From Bacilli bacterium (lineage in GTDB: Bacteria > Bacillota_I > Bacilli_A > RF39 > UBA660): a stretch of DNA of 50,415 nt. Shown here one piece after another: positions 1 to 50,415 of this stretch; positions within the stretch are counted from its first letter, which is position 1, and every line of letters starts with the position of its first letter. Under the pieces are notes generated by a model. The model saw only the letters and a list, made by a program, of their open reading frames with translations. It had not been told where the DNA came from and ran no database searches. The stretch spans positions 1 to 50,415 of the forward strand of contig JAFRIS010000027.1 of assembly GCA_017432665.1 (NCBI GenBank). Reading direction: 5' to 3'. The translations under genes were made by a program, and so were the position numbers.

Positions 1-400
1 GAACCTAAATCAGAAGAGTCAACTGAAGAAAAGAAAGAAGAAACTTCTGAAGTAAAAGAGGAGCCTAAATCAGAGGAGTCAACTGAAGAAAAGAAAGAAG
101 AAGTTTCTGAAGTAAAAGAAGAACCTAAATCAGAAGAGTCAACTGAAGAAAAGAAAGAAGAAACTTCTGAAGTAAAAGAGGAGCCTAAATCAGAGGAGTC
201 AACTGAAGAAAAGAAAGAAGAAGTTTCTGAAGTAAAAGAGGAGCCTAAATCAGAGGAGTCAACTGAAGAAAAGAAAGAAGAAGTTTCTGAAGTAAAAGAA
301 GAAACTAAGTCAGAAGAGCCAGCTGAGGAAAAGAAGGAAGAAGTTTCTGAAGTAAAAGAAGAAACTAAGTCAGAAGAGTCAACTGAGGAAAAGAAAGAGG
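1..400 (+). repeat. Coding tandem repeat, 60-bp unit (EPKSEESTEEKKEE[T/V]SEVKE), about 6.7 copies visible
   Basis: Units at 1, 61, 121, 181, 241, 301 and 361 are near-identical. Units 1 and 3 are identical, as are units 2 and 5. Confidence 0.97.
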
Positions 401-43380: not shown

Positions 43381-44415
43381 ATGGGTGTATTAGATAAAAT
43401 TAAAAATGCTCTTTTTGAGGTAGAATATGTCGAAGTAGAAGAACCACCTAAGAAAGAAAAGAAAGTAAAAGCAAAAGAATCAAAAGAAGATAAGCCAATT
43501 GCTAAAAAGATAGTTTTACCTGGTAAGAAAGAGGACAAAGTTGAAGAAATAGAAGAGGAAGAATTATTAGATGAAGACTTTGAAATTAGACCAAAAGATG
43601 AAGTTGTAGTAAAAGAAAGCTTTAAATTAATGGATGATGATGATTTCAAAGTAGAAGATGATTATCCAGCTATTGATGAACCGGAAATAATTGAAGAAGA
43701 GCCAAAAGAAGAAGTTAAGCCAATTTATGAGGCATATCAAGAACCACAAGTTGAAAGTAAACCTGTGTATCAACAAGAAAAACTATATCCTGAGAATCGT
43801 GAAAACAAGCTTTATGGTATTGATAATTCATATAGTGTTCAAGCTCATCAATATGGTACTTATGAGAGATATGAAGAAAGGACTTATTTTAAACCAAGTC
43901 CAATCATTTCACCAATCTATGGTATCTTAGATAAGAATTATAAAAAAGAAGATGTTAAAGAAAAACAAGATCCTAAAGTAAGTTCATATACTAGAGGTAG
44001 AGTAAGTGTAGATGATATAAGAGATAAAGCTTATGGAAAACAAGAAGCACCAGAAGAAGAAACTAAATTTGAAACAGAAATTGAAGAAGATAAATTAATG
44101 GTGGATTTAAGTGATAAGGCAAAACCAGAAGTAAAAGAAATAACTGTAGGAGATGCTTTAGAATACTTCCAAGATTTAGGTTTAGAATACAATGTTGATT
44201 ATGTAGATGCTAGTGCTGAAAATAAGCCTAAAGAAGAACCTAAAAAAGAAGAAAAAGTAGAAAAGAAAGAAGAAGTAATTGAAAAACAACCTGAGGAACC
44301 TCAAAAAAATGAAGAAGTAGAAGAAATTAAAGAGGAAACAGCATTAGAAGAAACTTCGGGGGAAGATGATAATCTATTTGATTTAATTGATTCTATGTAT
44401 AAAGAAAATAGTTAG
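43381..44415 (+). CDS. Very acidic low-complexity protein with FKPSPIISPIYG motif
   Basis: 344-aa E/K-rich ORF with aaggtga RBS. Confidence 0.75.
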   Translation: MGVLDKIKNALFEVEYVEVEEPPKKEKKVKAKESKEDKPIAKKIVLPGKKEDKVEEIEEEELLDEDFEIRPKDEVVVKESFKLMDDDDFKVEDDYPAIDEPEIIEEEPKEEVKPIYEAYQEPQVESKPVYQQEKLYPENRENKLYGIDNSYSVQAHQYGTYERYEERTYFKPSPIISPIYGILDKNYKKEDVKEKQDPKVSSYTRGRVSVDDIRDKAYGKQEAPEEETKFETEIEEDKLMVDLSDKAKPEVKEITVGDALEYFQDLGLEYNVDYVDASAENKPKEEPKKEEKVEKKEEVIEKQPEEPQKNEEVEEIKEETALEETSGEDDNLFDLIDSMYKENS

Positions 44416-46704: not shown

Positions 46705-47925
46705 ATGAGTAAGAGAAGCAATAAAAGAATGTTACAAAGAGTTAAACTAATTACTATAATATGCGCAATTATCTTATTCATAGAGATATGCTTTGTATTA
46801 TATTCTATCTTCTTTAGAAATAAAGAATCATTATATTTTGATGGTATCAATGCTGTTATAAGTAATGATTCATATTATGTTACTGTTGGTAGTAATAATG
46901 ATAACGATAATCACTATGAAAAAGCTAAGATATCTAAGTATGATAAGAAAAAGAACAAGACTTTTGAAAAATTATATAATACAGGCTACAATAGCGCTTT
47001 CTTTGGAGTTGCTTTTGATAATAATAGTATAGTCGCAGTAGGTAGTTATGAAAAAGAATTAGAAGATCATAAAAACTCCGTTAGAAAAGCTTTAATAGTT
47101 AAATATGATTCAGCAGGTGACATAGAGTTTTCTAGAGATTTTGAATTGTTGGATAATTCTAAATTTACTTCTATTGTTAAAGTAAATGATGGCTACTTAG
47201 TAACTGGTCAAAGTGTTTATATGAATACTAAAGTTGGTAATAAAAAAGGTGGAGCTATTTTAGTTAAATATGATACTGAGGGTAATTTACTATGGAATAA
47301 ATCATATGGTAGTAGTAAGAATGCTATATTTAATGATTTACTAGTAGTAAATAATAATATTTATACTGTTGGTACTGATGATAACTATGTGGGTATTCTT
47401 TGTAAGTATGATTTAGAAGGTAATCTAGTTACTTATAATGATTTTAAATCTACTGATGAAGTAGGTTTTAGTGGAATAATTACTTTAGATGATAAAATCT
47501 ATATCAGTGGTGCTGAAAGAGTAGGAAAAAATAAAACTAATGGTATGATAGTAGAATATGATTATGATTGTACTTATTTAAAACAAGTATCTTATAAACC
47601 TGAGGGATCTGCTCGCTATAATAAATTAATGATTGATAAAGATAATAATATTATTGCAATAGGTATTAAAACAAGTACTAAGAAATCTAATAGTAGAACA
47701 GTAAGTGATATTAATTATGATGGAGTTATAGGTAAATATAATTCTGATTTAAAAGAGGTTGCTGTAACTAGTTATGGCGATGATAGAGACGATTATTTTA
47801 CTGATGTTATCTTAGATATTAAAGATTATTTAATAGTAGGTTATTCTTCTTATGAAGATGGAAGTTATCTAAGTAAATTTATCAGATATAGTAATGCTTT
47901 AAAAGTATTGGAGGTAGATTCATGA
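46705..47925 (+). CDS. Membrane-anchored beta-propeller-like protein
   Basis: N-terminal TM; repeated [IL]VKYD..G...F units. Confidence 0.65.
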   Translation: MSKRSNKRMLQRVKLITIICAIILFIEICFVLYSIFFRNKESLYFDGINAVISNDSYYVTVGSNNDNDNHYEKAKISKYDKKKNKTFEKLYNTGYNSAFFGVAFDNNSIVAVGSYEKELEDHKNSVRKALIVKYDSAGDIEFSRDFELLDNSKFTSIVKVNDGYLVTGQSVYMNTKVGNKKGGAILVKYDTEGNLLWNKSYGSSKNAIFNDLLVVNNNIYTVGTDDNYVGILCKYDLEGNLVTYNDFKSTDEVGFSGIITLDDKIYISGAERVGKNKTNGMIVEYDYDCTYLKQVSYKPEGSARYNKLMIDKDNNIIAIGIKTSTKKSNSRTVSDINYDGVIGKYNSDLKEVAVTSYGDDRDDYFTDVILDIKDYLIVGYSSYEDGSYLSKFIRYSNALKVLEVDS

Positions 47926-48527: not shown

Positions 48528-49826
48528 ATGGTAATAGATAAAGATAACATAAAAATTCTTTTAATTATTTTAATACTAGGACTAGGTCTAGGATATGCTT
48601 ATATTAATAGTGACTTAAATATTAATGGAACAGCTCAAGTAAATAGTGCTAACTGGGATGTACATTGGGCTAATATTCAAGTTACTAATGGATCTGTATC
48701 AGGAACAAATGTAGTTACAGCACCAACTATATCAAATAGTACTACAGTAAATTACTCAATCATATTAAATACACCAGGAGATTATTATGAGTTCACAGTA
48801 GATGCAGTAAATGGTGGAAGTATAGATGCCATGATAGATTCAATAGATTCTAAGTTGAATGGAGCGACTATTACTGTACTGCCAGATTATTTAAACTATA
48901 CAGTAACATATTCTGATGGAGTAGAGTTAGCACCAAATCATCAATTGCTACATAATACAACAGAGACATATAAAGTAAGAATAGAGTACAGAACAGATAT
49001 AAATGCTAATCAATTACCAGCAACTAATCAAACATTAAGTCTACAATTTACAGTAACATATAGGCAAGCTACTGATGCTGCAGTTGCAGTTGATCATTCA
49101 TTTAATGGACACTCATGGGAAACAATAATAAATAATGTTCATTCAGGAAATACAAATAATTATAATATAGGAGATACAAAGACAGTAGATATGGGGAGTT
49201 TAGGAACACATACCTTAAGAATAGCAAACAAATCAACACCAAGCGAATGTAGTACAACAGGATTCTCACAAACAGCATGTGGTTTTGTATTAGAATTTGC
49301 CGATATAATTACAACTCATATAATGAATCCATATGCCCAAAGTGGAAATGTAGATGGTGATGGAAATAGAGGCGGCTGGCCAGCAAGTGAAATGAGGACC
49401 TATGTAAATAGTAATATATATAATGCTCTTCCGGAGCAACTAAGAAATGGAATAATAAATACAACAGTAGTGTCAGGGTACGGAAGCAATGATTCAGCAA
49501 ACTTCACCTCAACAGATAAACTATATTTATTATCGACACATGAAGTATGGGAAGATGTAGATGGAAATACAAGTGTTGGGATAGATTATTATGATACAGC
49601 ATATAATAATACAAGACAATTGGATTATTATAGTTCACAAAGCGTAACAACATCAAATTACTCAGGAGCAATTAAGAAAAGAAATGGTTCAAATTCTTTG
49701 TGGTGGCTGCGTTCGGCTAATTCTAACAATTACTTCATTTTCTTCGGTTTGGACAGCGACGGTAACCGAGTCAACCGCACTTCTGCTAATCCTAATGGGG
49801 TTTCACCAGCTTTCCGAATTGGATAA
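48528..49826 (+). CDS. DUF6273-like surface protein; candidate DGR target
   Basis: GLGYA N-terminus, GGWPASEMR, DKLYLLS..E, WWLRSA...GVSPAFRIG C-terminus. Confidence 0.8.
   Translation: MVIDKDNIKILLIILILGLGLGYAYINSDLNINGTAQVNSANWDVHWANIQVTNGSVSGTNVVTAPTISNSTTVNYSIILNTPGDYYEFTVDAVNGGSIDAMIDSIDSKLNGATITVLPDYLNYTVTYSDGVELAPNHQLLHNTTETYKVRIEYRTDINANQLPATNQTLSLQFTVTYRQATDAAVAVDHSFNGHSWETIINNVHSGNTNNYNIGDTKTVDMGSLGTHTLRIANKSTPSECSTTGFSQTACGFVLEFADIITTHIMNPYAQSGNVDGDGNRGGWPASEMRTYVNSNIYNALPEQLRNGIINTTVVSGYGSNDSANFTSTDKLYLLSTHEVWEDVDGNTSVGIDYYDTAYNNTRQLDYYSSQSVTTSNYSGAIKKRNGSNSLWWLRSANSNNYFIFFGLDSDGNRVNRTSANPNGVSPAFRIG
49701..49826 (+). other. Putative DGR variable region (VR)
   Basis: Codon shift: 13 of 41 codons end in C, in a gene otherwise rich in A-ending codons; lies between conserved WWLRSA and GVSPAF. 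Confidence 0.65.
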
Positions 49827-49894
49827 AAATGCAAAGTGCTGTAAAGTATAGGACTAAAGAATATAAAGAAAGAAGTAGGAATAATTCCGACTGA

Positions 49895-49949
49895 ACTATT
49901 TTGGAAAAAGGCACTCTTCGGCTAAGTCCGAAGATGGCGACAAAATAGT
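49895..49949. repeat. Nested inverted repeat/stem-loop downstream of the putative VR
   Basis: actattttg...tcttcgg-ctaagt-ccgaaga...caaaatagt. Confidence 0.75.
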
Positions 49950-50103
49950 GAAAGTTAAGAAAAAATCCGAACAAAGTGAGGATTAAATAAATAAAAGAAA
50001 ACTAAGCTGTTTTTCTGACACTTAGTTTTTTTGTTGATAAATAACATTTTTCTTGCAAAACAAGCAAAAATGGTTATAATATAAGTCAAAAGGAGTGAAA
50101 TGT

Positions 50104-50415
50104 ATGGCTAAAAAAGTAGTTGATAAGGAAAAATTAGCTAAAGTTACTAAAAAAGGGAAAGGTTTTATGGGTGAATTTAAAGAATTCATCATGCGTGGAA
50201 ATGTTATGGATATGGCTGTCGGTGTTATTATCGGTGGTGCATTTTCAGGAATCGTTACAGCATTAACTGATGACTTCATTAATCCATTAATTAATGGTAT
50301 TGGTGGAGCAGAAGTTGGAGGAACTTTAAAAATCTACGGAGGACAAGTTATTAAATATGGTGATTTTATTACTGCAATAATTAATTTCTTAATTATGGCA
50401 TTAGTATTATTCTTC
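50104..50415 (+). CDS. mscL: Large-conductance mechanosensitive channel (3'-truncated)
   Basis: My translation: MAKK...EFKEFIMRGNVMDMAVGVIIGGAF...YGDFITAIINFLI; aaggag RBS. Not in the ORF track because it runs off the window. Confidence 0.95.
   Translation, partial: MAKKVVDKEKLAKVTKKGKGFMGEFKEFIMRGNVMDMAVGVIIGGAFSGIVTALTDDFINPLINGIGGAEVGGTLKIYGGQVIKYGDFITAIINFLIMALVLFF

What the first reader, a model, noticed from the sequence alone, without database searches (positions are those of the whole stretch)
49701..49826. Orphan DGR-like variable region at the 3' end of a DUF6273-like surface protein
Seen: codons 6-32 of this segment are 25/27 pyrimidine-ending (AAC, TAC, TTC, GAC, AGC, GTC, CGC and others), whereas the rest of the gene favours ACA/GTA/TCA/GGA. 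The segment lies between WWLRSA and GVSPAFRIG*. Established: DGR reverse transcriptases mutate adenines in AAY template codons, giving NNY codons in C-terminal lectin-fold VRs. Inference: this gene is a remote target of a DGR whose RT and template repeat are elsewhere. I found neither in the window.
Basis: partly seen in the sequence, partly recalled or inferred. Interest (0 to 1): 0.75.

Follow-up and report, generated by a model that had tools for sequence, protein, structure and literature searches.

The report
Orphaned DGR variable region, cassette missing
The last 40 codons of this gut-bacterium surface-protein gene carry the codon footprint of a diversity-generating retroelement, but the retroelement is not found in this genome and the region looks frozen, so it is a relic of a known mechanism.

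Summary
Codons 6-32 of 49701-49826 are 25/27 pyrimidine-ending, against 177/391 in the rest of the gene.

The segment is the C-terminal variable region (VR) of a 432-aa DUF6273 / C-type-lectin-like surface protein. Across 20 family VRs, variable codons are 368/380 Y-ending. Four-fold codons are 98/105 Y-ending against 261/1244 in the scaffolds. Amino-acid selection cannot produce that; copying from an AAY template can.

Intact cassettes (target, 3' structured element, 179-aa accessory gene, A-rich template repeat (TR), reverse transcriptase (RT)) occur in one same-genus genome, one other genome and metagenome contigs. Their TR/VR mismatches fall only or almost only at TR adenines.

This genome (71% complete) shows no RT, Avd, accessory gene or TR. 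The window gene keeps the cassette-type 3' element (49868-49991), but a weak hairpin and mscL follow it. Three 98-99% identical database alleles have the same VR.

The likeliest reading is a former cassette-linked target, now frozen. A live remote target whose DGR lies in the unassembled 29% is not excluded. DUF6273 DGR targets, remote targets and targets without a DGR are already in print.

The parts
48528..49826 (+). Target gene, 432 aa plus stop. Surface or secreted protein with a C-terminal DUF6273 domain.
   Evidence: ORF. ATG at 48528 with AGGAG upstream. Pfam DUF6273 E 2.2e-15, 57.4 bits against cut-off 23.5, aa 271-431. 7555 homologues at E<=0.001 among 8000 candidates scored.
48540..48614 (+). 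N-terminal hydrophobic helix (aa 5-29): signal peptide or membrane anchor.
   Evidence: AlphaFold2 model, helix 5-29. Sequence KILLIILILGLGLGYAY.
48645..49085 (+). Beta-sandwich domain (aa 40-186), shared with many paralogues that lack the C-terminal domain.
   Evidence: Model strands 45-180. Fold matches of middling Z only: 7pnb Z 6.4, TasA 8aur Z 5.1. tblastn hits to aa 1-190 on 9 further contigs.
49149..49823 (+). C-type-lectin-like DUF6273 domain (aa 208-432).
   Evidence: VIA-align: 9qa6_A (DUF6273 N-terminal domain of the T. ramosa IgA peptidase) Z 17.1, rmsd 2.5, 180 aligned. Legionella Lcl C-terminal domain Z 7.4. T. denticola variable protein 2y3c Z 6.3. C-type lectins Z 5.2-5.6.
49704..49809 (+). 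106-nt stretch that corresponds position by position to the template repeat of intact cassettes. It ends at CCAG, where TR/VR homology stops.
   Evidence: Ungapped comparison with the L109 TR. The homology end at CCAG is seen in 6 TR/VR pairs.
49719..49796 (+). Hypervariable codons (codons 7-32 of the segment), NNY-restricted.
   Evidence: Per-column table of 21 family VRs: positions 1-2 randomised with A commonest, position 3 T or C. 368/380 Y-ending, K/E/Q/M/W 4/380.
49797..49826 (+). Conserved 3' end GVSPAFRIG plus stop. It spans the TR-homology boundary (an IMH-like position).
   Evidence: Conserved in all 5 own-genome copies and nearly invariant in the 76-sequence alignment.
49868..49991 (+). 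Structured 3' element: long hairpin P1 (49889-49956) and small hairpin P2 with tandem G-A (49964-49984). It is the same element that lies between target gene and accessory gene in intact cassettes.
   Evidence: MFE -30.3 kcal/mol, z -4.58, 0 of 200 shuffles fold as well. 27 consensus pairs, 9 with compensatory changes in 4 sequences. Homologous to the L109 cassette spacer. Covariance model: 5 matches in 4 of 47 genus genomes, one in G000. No Rfam match at E<=1.
50002..50032 (+). Weak hairpin (CTAAG...CTTAG) followed by T7: probable end of the target transcript.
   Evidence: Read from the sequence. Not called by the terminator scan, which needs 3 G-C pairs.
50104..50415 (+). mscL (cut by the contig end). 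This unrelated gene sits where accessory gene, TR and RT sit in intact cassettes.
   Evidence: Pfam MscL E 1.3e-28. Promoter-like TTGCAA-16-TATAAT at 50053-80.

Best explanation
49701-49826 is a genuine DGR variable region. It encodes the ligand-binding surface of a C-type-lectin-like DUF6273 domain at the end of a secreted or anchored protein.

Its sequence was written by mutagenic retrohoming. An RNA template repeat made largely of AAY codons was reverse-transcribed with random bases opposite adenines, and the cDNA replaced the VR up to the CCAG boundary at 49809. This left NNY codons.

In this lineage the writer is a chromosomal cassette ordered as: target gene, structured 3' element, 179-aa helical accessory gene, TR, RT. 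The window gene is the only copy in this genome that still carries that 3' element, but accessory gene, TR and RT are not behind it. A weak hairpin and mscL follow instead.

The likeliest history is that this was a cassette-linked target whose cassette was lost, and that the VR has been static since. Shown: the codon footprint, the fold, the intact cassettes in relatives, the homology of the 3' element, and the absence of cassette parts from the assembly. Inferred: loss by deletion, and present inactivity.
For: (1) Footprint.
- Window codons 6-32 are 25/27 Y-ending.
- In 20 family VRs the variable codons are 368/380 Y-ending, with K/E/Q/M/W at 4/380 against 13.9% in the scaffolds.
- In four-fold codon families 98/105 are Y-ending against 261/1244 in the scaffolds, which are 75% A-ending. 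Scaffold four-fold sites are near saturation between paralogues (mean identity 0.67 against 0.59 expected from composition).
- The bias at synonymous sites excludes amino-acid selection. It shows writing from a Y-ending template after the paralogues diverged.

(2) Fold. The C-terminal domain matches a solved DUF6273 domain (Z 17.1) and, more weakly, C-type-lectin-fold proteins including the T. denticola variable protein (Z 6.3).

(3) Cassettes in relatives. TR/VR mismatches at TR adenines:
- L103 19/19, L105 14/15, L106 20/20, L109 13/13, G013 24/28.
- L033 19/21.
- The L109 target is 68% identical to the window protein over its full length.
- All 7 metagenome hits to the TR pattern were A-rich TR copies.

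(4) Link of this locus to a cassette. The window 3' element aligns with the L109 spacer between target stop and accessory start. It is structured and single-copy in G000.

(5) A series of eroded cassettes.
- L103 keeps only 16 codons of RT.
- G027:C3 keeps the element plus a remnant of about 31-36 codons of the accessory gene.
- The window, L017 and L040 keep the element only.

(6) Absence in G000. RVT_1 0 matches, bAvd 0, accessory profile 0. tblastn with 4 RTs and 4 accessory proteins gave best E 0.025. No TR-like copy was found by blastn: all 4 other VR-like copies are gene 3' ends.

(7) Stasis. P0001-P0003 are 98-99% identical, differ from the window protein at several N-terminal residues, and have the identical VR. 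Of 8 groups with at least 95% scaffold identity, 7 have a single VR.

(8) Rarity. The cassette accessory gene is in 2 of 47 genus genomes (1 intact). The target family is in 26 of 47.
Against: - The genome is only 71% complete. DGR cassettes and these paralogues sit at contig ends, so a cassette could be unassembled or unbinned. In G013 the VR and the TR lie on two contig ends, and many family loci end within 100-350 nt of the gene.
- All 5 four-fold variable codons of the window VR are still Y-ending, so the last writing is not ancient.
- The 3' element is well folded, as expected if it is still in use.
- The non-adenine mismatches (16/68 to the L109 TR, 11 to the family majority) are measured against foreign templates. 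The true cognate TR is unknown.
- The three near-identical alleles may come from related samples.
- The scaffold tree does not group element-bearing targets (5 changes, 15 of 29 branches unresolved). Orthology of the window gene with cassette-linked targets is therefore not shown.
- Laying reads gave no usable within-population data.
Confidence: 0.55

Rival explanations
1. Live remote (trans) target. A DGR cassette of the L109/G013 type lies in the unassembled 29% of the genome, or on an unbinned contig, and still rewrites this VR episodically. The 3' element would serve as the recipient signal.
For: - Completeness is 71%.
- Assemblies break at these repeats.
- The VR four-fold codons are all Y-ending.
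- The conserved boundary CCAG and GVSPAFRIG are intact.
- The element is strongly folded and conserved.
- Remote DGR targets are documented: 45 of 372 DGRs have non-adjacent targets (passages read).
- VR rewriting does occur in the family at about 5-10% scaffold divergence: in the 0.90-0.95 bin, 9 of 16 pairs differ in the VR by more than 2 residues.
Against: - No RT, Avd, accessory gene or TR in 1.19 Mb.
- The VR is identical in three diverged alleles.
- In G013, which has a cassette, only one VR, on a contig end facing the end of the TR contig, matches the TR. One other G013 paralogue that could be parsed has 32 non-adenine mismatches.
- The cassette is intact in 1 of 47 genus genomes.
- The P2 loop of the window element is AAA, where the other copies have GAA, GAAA or GGAA.
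Confidence: 0.27
2. The VR was never a recipient at this locus. The gene, or only its 3' end with the element, was copied here by duplication or gene conversion from a cassette-linked paralogue, carrying an already written VR with it. The paralogue family would then be an archive of past DGR products.
For: - The family is large and scrambled. G000 has 7 matches to the C-terminal domain, many at contig ends.
- The positional counterpart in a close relative (L007) has a flank 98.5% identical over 259 nt that runs into mscL. Its target gene is only 76% identical, has a different VR and lacks the 3' element.
- Element-bearing targets are scattered on the tree.
Against: - Four-fold sites show that VRs were written after the paralogue scaffolds diverged. 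That needs either writing in place or very recent conversion.
- The tree is poorly resolved.
- No donor copy is identified in G000.
Confidence: 0.13
3. There is no DGR involvement. The pyrimidine-ending codons only reflect an N/S/Y/T/D/G-rich loop under diversifying selection, or a chance composition.
For: Y3-rich windows are not unique: 179 of 340,298 windows reach 25 or more, and most of the places are unrelated T-rich frames.
Against: - Synonymous four-fold codons are 93% Y-ending in VRs against 21% in scaffolds of the same genes.
- The preferred third base is column-specific across 21 VRs.
- Six cassettes have adenine-specific TR/VR mismatches in the same family.
Confidence: 0.03

Closest known systems
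DUF6273-domain DGR targets of gut phages (tentaclins and Mtd-like proteins, PMC10743442; Faecalibacterium prophages, PMC11792537; Toutatisvirus hotspot preprint 10.1101/2024.10.15.618418). Passages read.
   Same: DUF6273 domain with a C-type-lectin-like fold and the VR at the C-terminal end of the domain. More than one target per DGR. The preprint reports phages in which the DGR is absent while both target genes remain.
   Different: Here the genes are chromosomal. The flanks are tyrS, a histidine phosphatase and mscL for the window, and SufBD, an ABC transporter and a tRNA synthetase for the cassettes. The host is a small-genome ruminant-gut Bacilli lineage. The protein has an N-terminal anchor and a beta-sandwich instead of Ig or tail-fibre modules. 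The family has up to 15 matches per genome. No close relative of the RT was found in viral contigs with the L109 RT.
Treponema denticola TvpA and its DGR with remote targets (PDB 2y3c; PMC5758913, passages read)
   Same: Cellular DGR with C-type-lectin-fold variable proteins, and several paralogous targets away from the RT. Fold match Z 6.3, 134 residues aligned, 16% identity.
   Different: In Treponema the remote VRs match the TR apart from A-to-N changes. Here no TR is present in the genome, and the VR differs from the nearest TR found at 16 of 68 non-adenine sites.
Bordetella phage BPP-1 target-recognition hairpin/cruciform downstream of the VR (PMC3240598, passages read)
   Same: A conserved structure just beyond the TR/VR homology, in which pairing is kept while the stem sequence varies. 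The P2 loops in relatives are GGAA or GAAA, which fit the published GRNA consensus.
   Different: The published elements have 7-10 bp GC-rich stems and lie 4-34 bp from the VR. This element is 124 nt and bipartite. It starts 42 nt after the stop, and P2 lies about 155 nt after the homology end. P2 contains tandem G-A, and its loop in the window is AAA. A role in homing is untested.
N-terminal DUF6273 domain of the Thomasclavelia ramosa IgA peptidase (PDB 9qa6; PMC12402451, passage read)
   Same: Best structural match of the C-terminal domain: Z 17.1, rmsd 2.5 A, 180 residues, 19% identity. It is a secreted protein of a gut Bacillota organism.
   Different: It is the N-terminal domain of a secreted M64 metallopeptidase, and the passages read give no sign of a DGR. 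The window protein has no peptidase domain.

Membership tests
Pfam DUF6273 (PF19789) | Score above the curated gathering cut-off | tested here: met
   57.4 bits against 23.5, E 2.2e-15, aa 271-431, profile positions 20-170 of 172.
DGR variable protein (C-type-lectin-fold class) | VR lies at the C-terminal end of a C-type-lectin/FGE-like fold | tested here: met
   Model pLDDT 86. Matches to 9qa6 (Z 17.1), Lcl (7.4), TvpA 2y3c (6.3), PvdO (5.7) and C-type lectins (5.2-5.6), all over residues about 200-432. Apart from 9qa6 the Z values are middling.
DGR variable region | Codon footprint of adenine mutagenesis of AAY codons: NNY codons, variation at positions 1-2, no K/E/Q/M/W | tested here: met
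   Window 25/27. Family 368/380 Y-ending and 4/380 K/E/Q/M/W. Four-fold codons 98/105 Y-ending against 261/1244. Column table.
DGR variable region | A cognate TR in the same genome that differs from the VR (almost) only at adenines | tested here: not met
   blastn of the VR against all 47 contigs finds only 4 other gene 3' ends. The TR pattern has 0 matches in G000. The nearest TR found elsewhere (L109) differs at 16 of 68 non-A sites and 19 of 38 A sites. The assembly is 71% complete, so absence from the organism is not shown.
DGR system (complete, in this genome) | Reverse transcriptase gene | tested here: not met
   RVT_1 0 matches in G000. tblastn with 4 genus RTs gave best E 0.025.
DGR system (complete, in this genome) | Accessory protein (Avd or equivalent) | tested here: not met
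   bAvd 0 matches. The profile of the 179-aa accessory protein has 0 matches in G000.
DGR target family (by homology) | Homologous genes sit next to TR plus RT with adenine-specific TR/VR mismatches | tested here: met
   L109 (68% identity to the window protein) 13/13, L106 20/20, L103 19/19, L105 14/15, G013 24/28. L033 19/21.
DGR recipient site | IMH-like boundary and a hairpin/cruciform downstream of the VR | tested here: inconclusive
   The homology boundary CCAG and the following GVSPAFRIG codons are conserved. A conserved structured element follows, but its size and distance differ from the published hairpins and no function was tested.

The most novel reading that the evidence does not exclude
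The 124-nt bipartite 3' element (long hairpin P1 plus a tandem-G-A hairpin P2 with a GNRA-like loop) is the cis-acting licence for retrohoming in this DGR lineage. It would be an elaborate, distant counterpart of the BPP-1 hairpin/cruciform.

Each genome would then hold one licensed recipient, here the window gene. The many element-less paralogues would be an archive of variants that were written after the paralogues diverged, as their Y-biased synonymous sites indicate, and were then retired.
Probability: 0.2. Interest if true: 0.65.

Novelty: new member of a known kind. Interest (0 to 1): 0.4.

Why it matters
The finding adds a cellular, non-phage lineage (small-genome ruminant-gut Bacilli) to the DUF6273 class of DGR targets. 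In that lineage VR-bearing targets far outnumber cassettes: 26 of 47 genus genomes carry the target family, but only 1 of 47 has an intact cassette.

Two practical points follow. First, Y-bias at four-fold codons detects DGR-written regions when no TR or RT is assembled, and it gives a rough age for them. Second, a conserved structured element marks the cassette-linked target and survives loss of the cassette. It could be tested as a recipient signal.

For this particular window the result is mostly corrective. The region is a footprint, and no working hypermutation system was shown here.

Tried and rejected
- **Reads.** The best runs hold at most 0.50 of the sampled words and are kept as contigs. 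The two raw-read runs (X21, X22) covered only the conserved mscL part. In X1 depth falls to 4.96 over 49692-49759, between 134.4 and 49.8, and three contigs skip the VR (joints 49651>49800, 49652>49796, 49532>49801). Paralogues and other species map at 85% likeness, so this shows only that the VR is the most divergent part. It does not show variation within a population.
- **The listing of cluster members.** The shared database was off, so members of the 90% cluster could not be listed. One search gave near-identical proteins instead.
- **Third-position identity between paralogues.** VR 0.70 against scaffold synonymous 0.71. This did not discriminate and was replaced by the four-fold test.
- **Scaffold tree.** 32 rows, 15 of 29 inner branches unresolved, and the element/cassette label needs 5 changes (shuffled mean 7.2; 20 of 500 shuffles as low). 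It is inconclusive on whether element-bearing targets are one orthologous group.
- **Rfam.** No family matches 49600-50415 at E<=1.
- **Viral contigs.** No relative of the L109 RT was found. A single-protein query reaches only close relatives.
- **Accessory protein.** No Pfam or NCBIfam hit and no PDB sequence hit below E 0.1. It matches phrog_30516, of unknown function. The model is a helical bundle. Foldseek gives only weak matches: 2gsc E 0.05-0.35, and chains of the DGR RT ribonucleoprotein entries (8ube_D, 8ub7_E, 8ubb_D) E 0.45-0.78. It is Avd-like at best; this is not shown.
- **Raw Y3 count as a genome-wide detector.** It is not specific.
- **Supplements.** The supplementary tables of the DGR surveys were not opened. 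They may list this lineage.
Full report
**1. The observation**

The segment 49701-49826 is the in-frame 3' end of a 432-codon gene (48528-49826, + strand). It reads WWLRSANSNNYFIFFGLDSDGNRVNRTSANPNGVSPAFRIG*.
- Codons 6-32 are 25/27 pyrimidine-ending, against 177/391 elsewhere in the gene (Fisher p 8.7e-7).
- C-ending codons are 12/27 against 26/391.
- GC is 46%, against 33.5% for the gene and 28.8% for the window.

As a control I slid the same 27-codon window over every open frame of at least 150 codons in the whole assembly. Of 340,298 windows, 179 (0.05%) reach 25 or more, in 15 listed places. Three of these are VRs of this family. The others are T-rich frames, and the one I read is ordinary. 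The count is therefore real and rare, but it would not be decisive alone.

**2. The gene and its protein**

Pfam places aa 271-431 in DUF6273 (57.4 bits, cut-off 23.5). An AlphaFold2 model built from 76 homologues (pLDDT 86) shows three parts:
- an N-terminal hydrophobic helix (aa 5-29);
- a beta-sandwich (aa 40-186);
- a C-terminal domain (aa 208-432).

The C-terminal domain matches the solved DUF6273 domain of the Thomasclavelia ramosa IgA peptidase best (9qa6, Z 17.1, rmsd 2.5 A, 180 residues). It matches C-type-lectin-fold proteins more weakly: Legionella Lcl Z 7.4, Treponema denticola variable protein 2y3c Z 6.3, and several C-type lectins Z 5.2-5.6.

The neighbours are housekeeping genes: tyrS, a histidine phosphatase and mscL. 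Nothing nearby is phage-like.

**3. A paralogue family with VR-like ends**
- The assembly is G000: 1.19 Mb, 47 contigs, 71% complete, with the window as contig C19.
- Four further copies of the VR-like 3' end lie at C1:15433-15595, C1:3352-3531, C27:454-626 and C30:36086-36257. All are gene ends with the stop codon in the same place.
- The C-terminal domain has 7 matches in G000. Several copies are cut by contig ends.
- Related loci come from ruminant-gut Bacilli MAGs.
- The family is present in 26 of 47 genomes of the genus, with up to 15 matches per genome.

**4. The footprint is that of a DGR, not of selection**

I compared 21 family VRs of the standard length, column by column.
- The variable codons have randomised first and second positions, with A the commonest base. 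The third position is T or C, with a preference specific to each column.
- Over 20 VRs, 368 of 380 variable codons end in Y, against 44% in the 150 upstream codons. K, E, Q, M and W make up 4 of 380 residues, against 13.9% upstream.
- The decisive figure comes from four-fold degenerate codon families, where the third base does not change the residue. There, 98 of 105 VR codons end in Y, against 261 of 1244 in the scaffolds of the same genes, which are 75% A-ending.
- Scaffold four-fold sites are close to saturation between paralogues (mean identity 0.67 against 0.59 expected from composition).

The VRs therefore stand far from the genome's synonymous equilibrium. They must have been copied from a Y-ending template after the paralogue scaffolds diverged. 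The window VR fits this: all 5 of its four-fold variable codons end in Y.

**5. The writer exists in relatives**

In the same-genus genome G013, an RT gene (RVT_1 E 1e-10) is preceded by an A-rich template...AAT TCT AAT AAT AAC AAC AAT TTC.... Its only good match in that genome is the VR of a DUF6273 gene at the end of another contig. Of the 28 mismatches, 24 are at TR adenines.

A degenerate TR pattern found 7 metagenome stretches, and all 7 are A-rich TR copies.
- Six of the 7 have a conserved 179-aa accessory gene just upstream. L108 does not.
- An RT homologue follows the TR in L106, L108 and L109.
- L105 and L107 end less than 230 nt after the TR.
- L103 and L104 have no RT in the held flank.

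TR/VR mismatches at adenines in the cassettes:

| Cassette | Mismatches at TR adenines |
|---|---|
| L103 | 19/19 |
| L105 | 14/15 |
| L106 | 20/20 |
| L109 | 13/13 |
| G013 | 24/28 |
| L033 (a Bacillales MAG) | 19/21 |

L107 pairs the TR of L106 with the VR of L103 and gives 41 mismatches. It is probably a chimeric contig.

The L106 TR is identical to that of G013, yet their VRs differ. This cassette type has therefore been active in nature.

The L109 target is 68% identical to the window protein over all 432 residues. Its TR has the same codon skeleton as the main family.

The cassettes lie among chromosomal genes: SufBD, an ABC transporter, a tRNA synthetase and HD-domain genes. No close relative of the L109 RT was found in viral contigs.

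**6. What is missing here**

G000 has none of the cassette parts:
- no RVT_1 match;
- no bAvd match;
- no match to the accessory profile;
- nothing significant with four RTs and four accessory proteins of the genus (best E 0.025);
- no TR-like copy.

Four of five genomes that hold the closest homologues also lack any RVT_1 match. The accessory gene occurs in 2 of 47 genus genomes: intact in G013, and as a 36-codon remnant in G027. Among the 18 genomes that are at least 90% complete and at most 5% contaminated, 8 have the target family and 1 has the accessory gene. VR-bearing targets without an assembled DGR are thus the rule in this genus. One caveat applies: these are MAGs, and repeats of this kind break assemblies.

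**7. The 3' element ties this gene to a cassette**

The other four copies in G000 have a simple hairpin straight after the stop codon. The window gene is instead followed by a 124-nt element (49868-49991).
- It folds well: -30.3 kcal/mol, z -4.58, and 0 of 200 shuffles fold as well.
- It aligns with sequences behind three other family genes. Of 27 consensus pairs, 9 carry compensatory changes.
- It has a long hairpin (P1) and a small hairpin (P2) with tandem G-A. The P2 loop is GAA, GAAA or GGAA in relatives and AAA in the window.
- In L109 this element is the spacer between the target's stop codon and the accessory gene. A permuted version occupies the same place in L103, L105, L106, G059 and L033.
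- A covariance model finds it 5 times in 4 of 47 genus genomes, and once in G000.
- Rfam has no match.

The loci form a series of erosion:

| State of the cassette | Loci |
|---|---|
| Intact | L106, L109, L033; G013 (VR and TR on two contig ends) |
| RT reduced to 16 codons | L103 |
| Accessory gene cut to about 31-36 codons; TR and RT gone | G027:C3 |
| Element only | window, L017, L040 |

In the window the element is followed by a weak hairpin with a T7 run and then the mscL promoter and gene.

**8. Is the VR still being rewritten?**

Three database proteins are 98-99% identical to the window protein. They differ from it at several residues, all in the N-terminal third. Their VR is identical to the window's.

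In the wider family, 113 of 120 listed proteins could be parsed:
- All 15 pairs with at least 98% scaffold identity have identical VRs.
- Of 17 pairs at 95-98%, 15 have identical VRs and 2 differ by one residue (L/W).
- Of 16 pairs at 90-95%, 9 have thoroughly different VRs.
- All 99 pairs at 85-90% differ.
- Of 8 groups joined at 95% or more, 7 have a single VR.

Rewriting is thus episodic. It is not visible at the strain level for this gene.

Against the nearest TR found (L109), the window VR differs at 19 of 38 adenine sites and at 16 of 68 other sites. Against the family majority it deviates at 11 non-adenine sites, which ranks it 16th of 21. VRs next to cassettes show 0-1 such deviations, or 4 in G013. 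The cognate TR is unknown, so this is suggestive only.

Laid reads gave no population data.

**9. Verdict on mechanism**

The segment is a DGR-written variable region (about 0.95). The readings of its present state are:

| Reading | Odds |
|---|---|
| Relic of a cassette-linked target whose accessory gene, TR and RT were lost; VR frozen | 0.55 |
| Live trans target of a cassette in the unassembled 29% | 0.27 |
| VR and element brought here by duplication or conversion from a cassette-linked paralogue | 0.13 |
| Non-DGR origin | about 0.03 |

**10. Comparison with what is known**

The papers below were read as search listings and 'find' passages only.
- DUF6273 domains have been described as C-type-lectin-like DGR targets with the VR at their C-terminal end. 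The reports cover gut phages (PMC10743442; PMC11792537) and a preprint on phage hotspots (10.1101/2024.10.15.618418). The preprint also notes phages that keep both target genes without the DGR.
- Non-adjacent and remote targets are established: 45 of 372 DGRs have them, and the Treponema DGR has seven (PMC5758913).
- A hairpin/cruciform downstream of the VR, with a 7-10 bp GC-rich stem, a GRNA loop and a distance of 4-34 bp, is needed for efficient homing in BPP-1 (PMC3240598).

The window finding is therefore a new member of a known kind. Three things seem less familiar: the cellular, multi-paralogue setting in ruminant Bacilli; the non-Avd-annotated 179-aa accessory protein (phrog_30516; helical model; only weak Foldseek similarity to 2gsc and to chains of the DGR RT ribonucleoprotein entries); and the large conserved 3' element. 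My only search for prior mention was the term DUF6273 (7 papers). I made no literature search for the element itself beyond Rfam, so I cannot say it is undescribed. I recall from memory, not from a call, that 2gsc belongs to the Avd-like four-helix family.

Noticed in passing
L088:5645-7168 (-), L085:9679-10716 (+), L087:7694-9633 (-): A second DGR type occurs in the same genus (G008, G027, G021): an Avd-like gene plus an RT next to a 765-1205-aa target, with its own A-rich TR/VR pair (72-84% identical direct repeats). In G008 the RT open frame is 508 aa and its C-terminal part matches MutS domain I (E 7.4e-5).
   Followed up: partly
L102 (G059:C15, contig end) and L104: These are TR-like copies preceded by the 3' end of the accessory gene but followed by the target-gene end (AFRIG, stop, terminator hairpin) instead of the TR flank and RT. 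They are either TR x VR recombination, which would delete the RT, or assembly chimeras at the repeat. The arrangement was seen twice independently.
   Followed up: partly
L107 versus L103 and L106: L107 carries the VR of L103 but the TR of L106 (41 mismatches, 20 of them not at adenines). It is probably a chimeric metagenome contig.
   Followed up: no
window 49827-50100 versus L007:11270-11612: In a close relative, the flank that runs into mscL is 98.5% identical over 259 nt. The target gene upstream is only 76% identical, has a different VR and lacks the 3' element, and the genes further upstream do not match. This suggests local replacement of the target gene.
   Followed up: partly
G047:C15:7656-11153: One open frame of 3717 aa holds at least five tandem DUF6273 domains.
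   Followed up: no
window 26-276: An 11-mer of the query recurs at exactly 60-nt spacing (26, 86, 146, 206, 266). This points to a tandem repeat with a 60-nt period at the start of the window.
   Followed up: no
L086:7304-8299 (-) (G026): A retron-type RT (NCBIfam retron St85 family, E 4.4e-65) in a same-genus genome, unrelated to the DGRs.
   Followed up: no
G013:C2:97379-97633 (-): A second, truncated copy of the accessory gene (positions 2-86 of 179, one TAG inside) in the genome that also has the intact cassette.
   Followed up: no
window 49915-49934 (- strand): Read on the minus strand, the inner hairpin of P1 is followed by a T run, and the scan calls it terminator-like. No converging gene is present.
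   Followed up: no
window 46705-47925 and 43381-44415: Two neighbouring proteins (406 aa with an N-terminal hydrophobic segment; 344 aa, very acidic and K/E-rich) have no Pfam match at E<=0.001.
   Followed up: no
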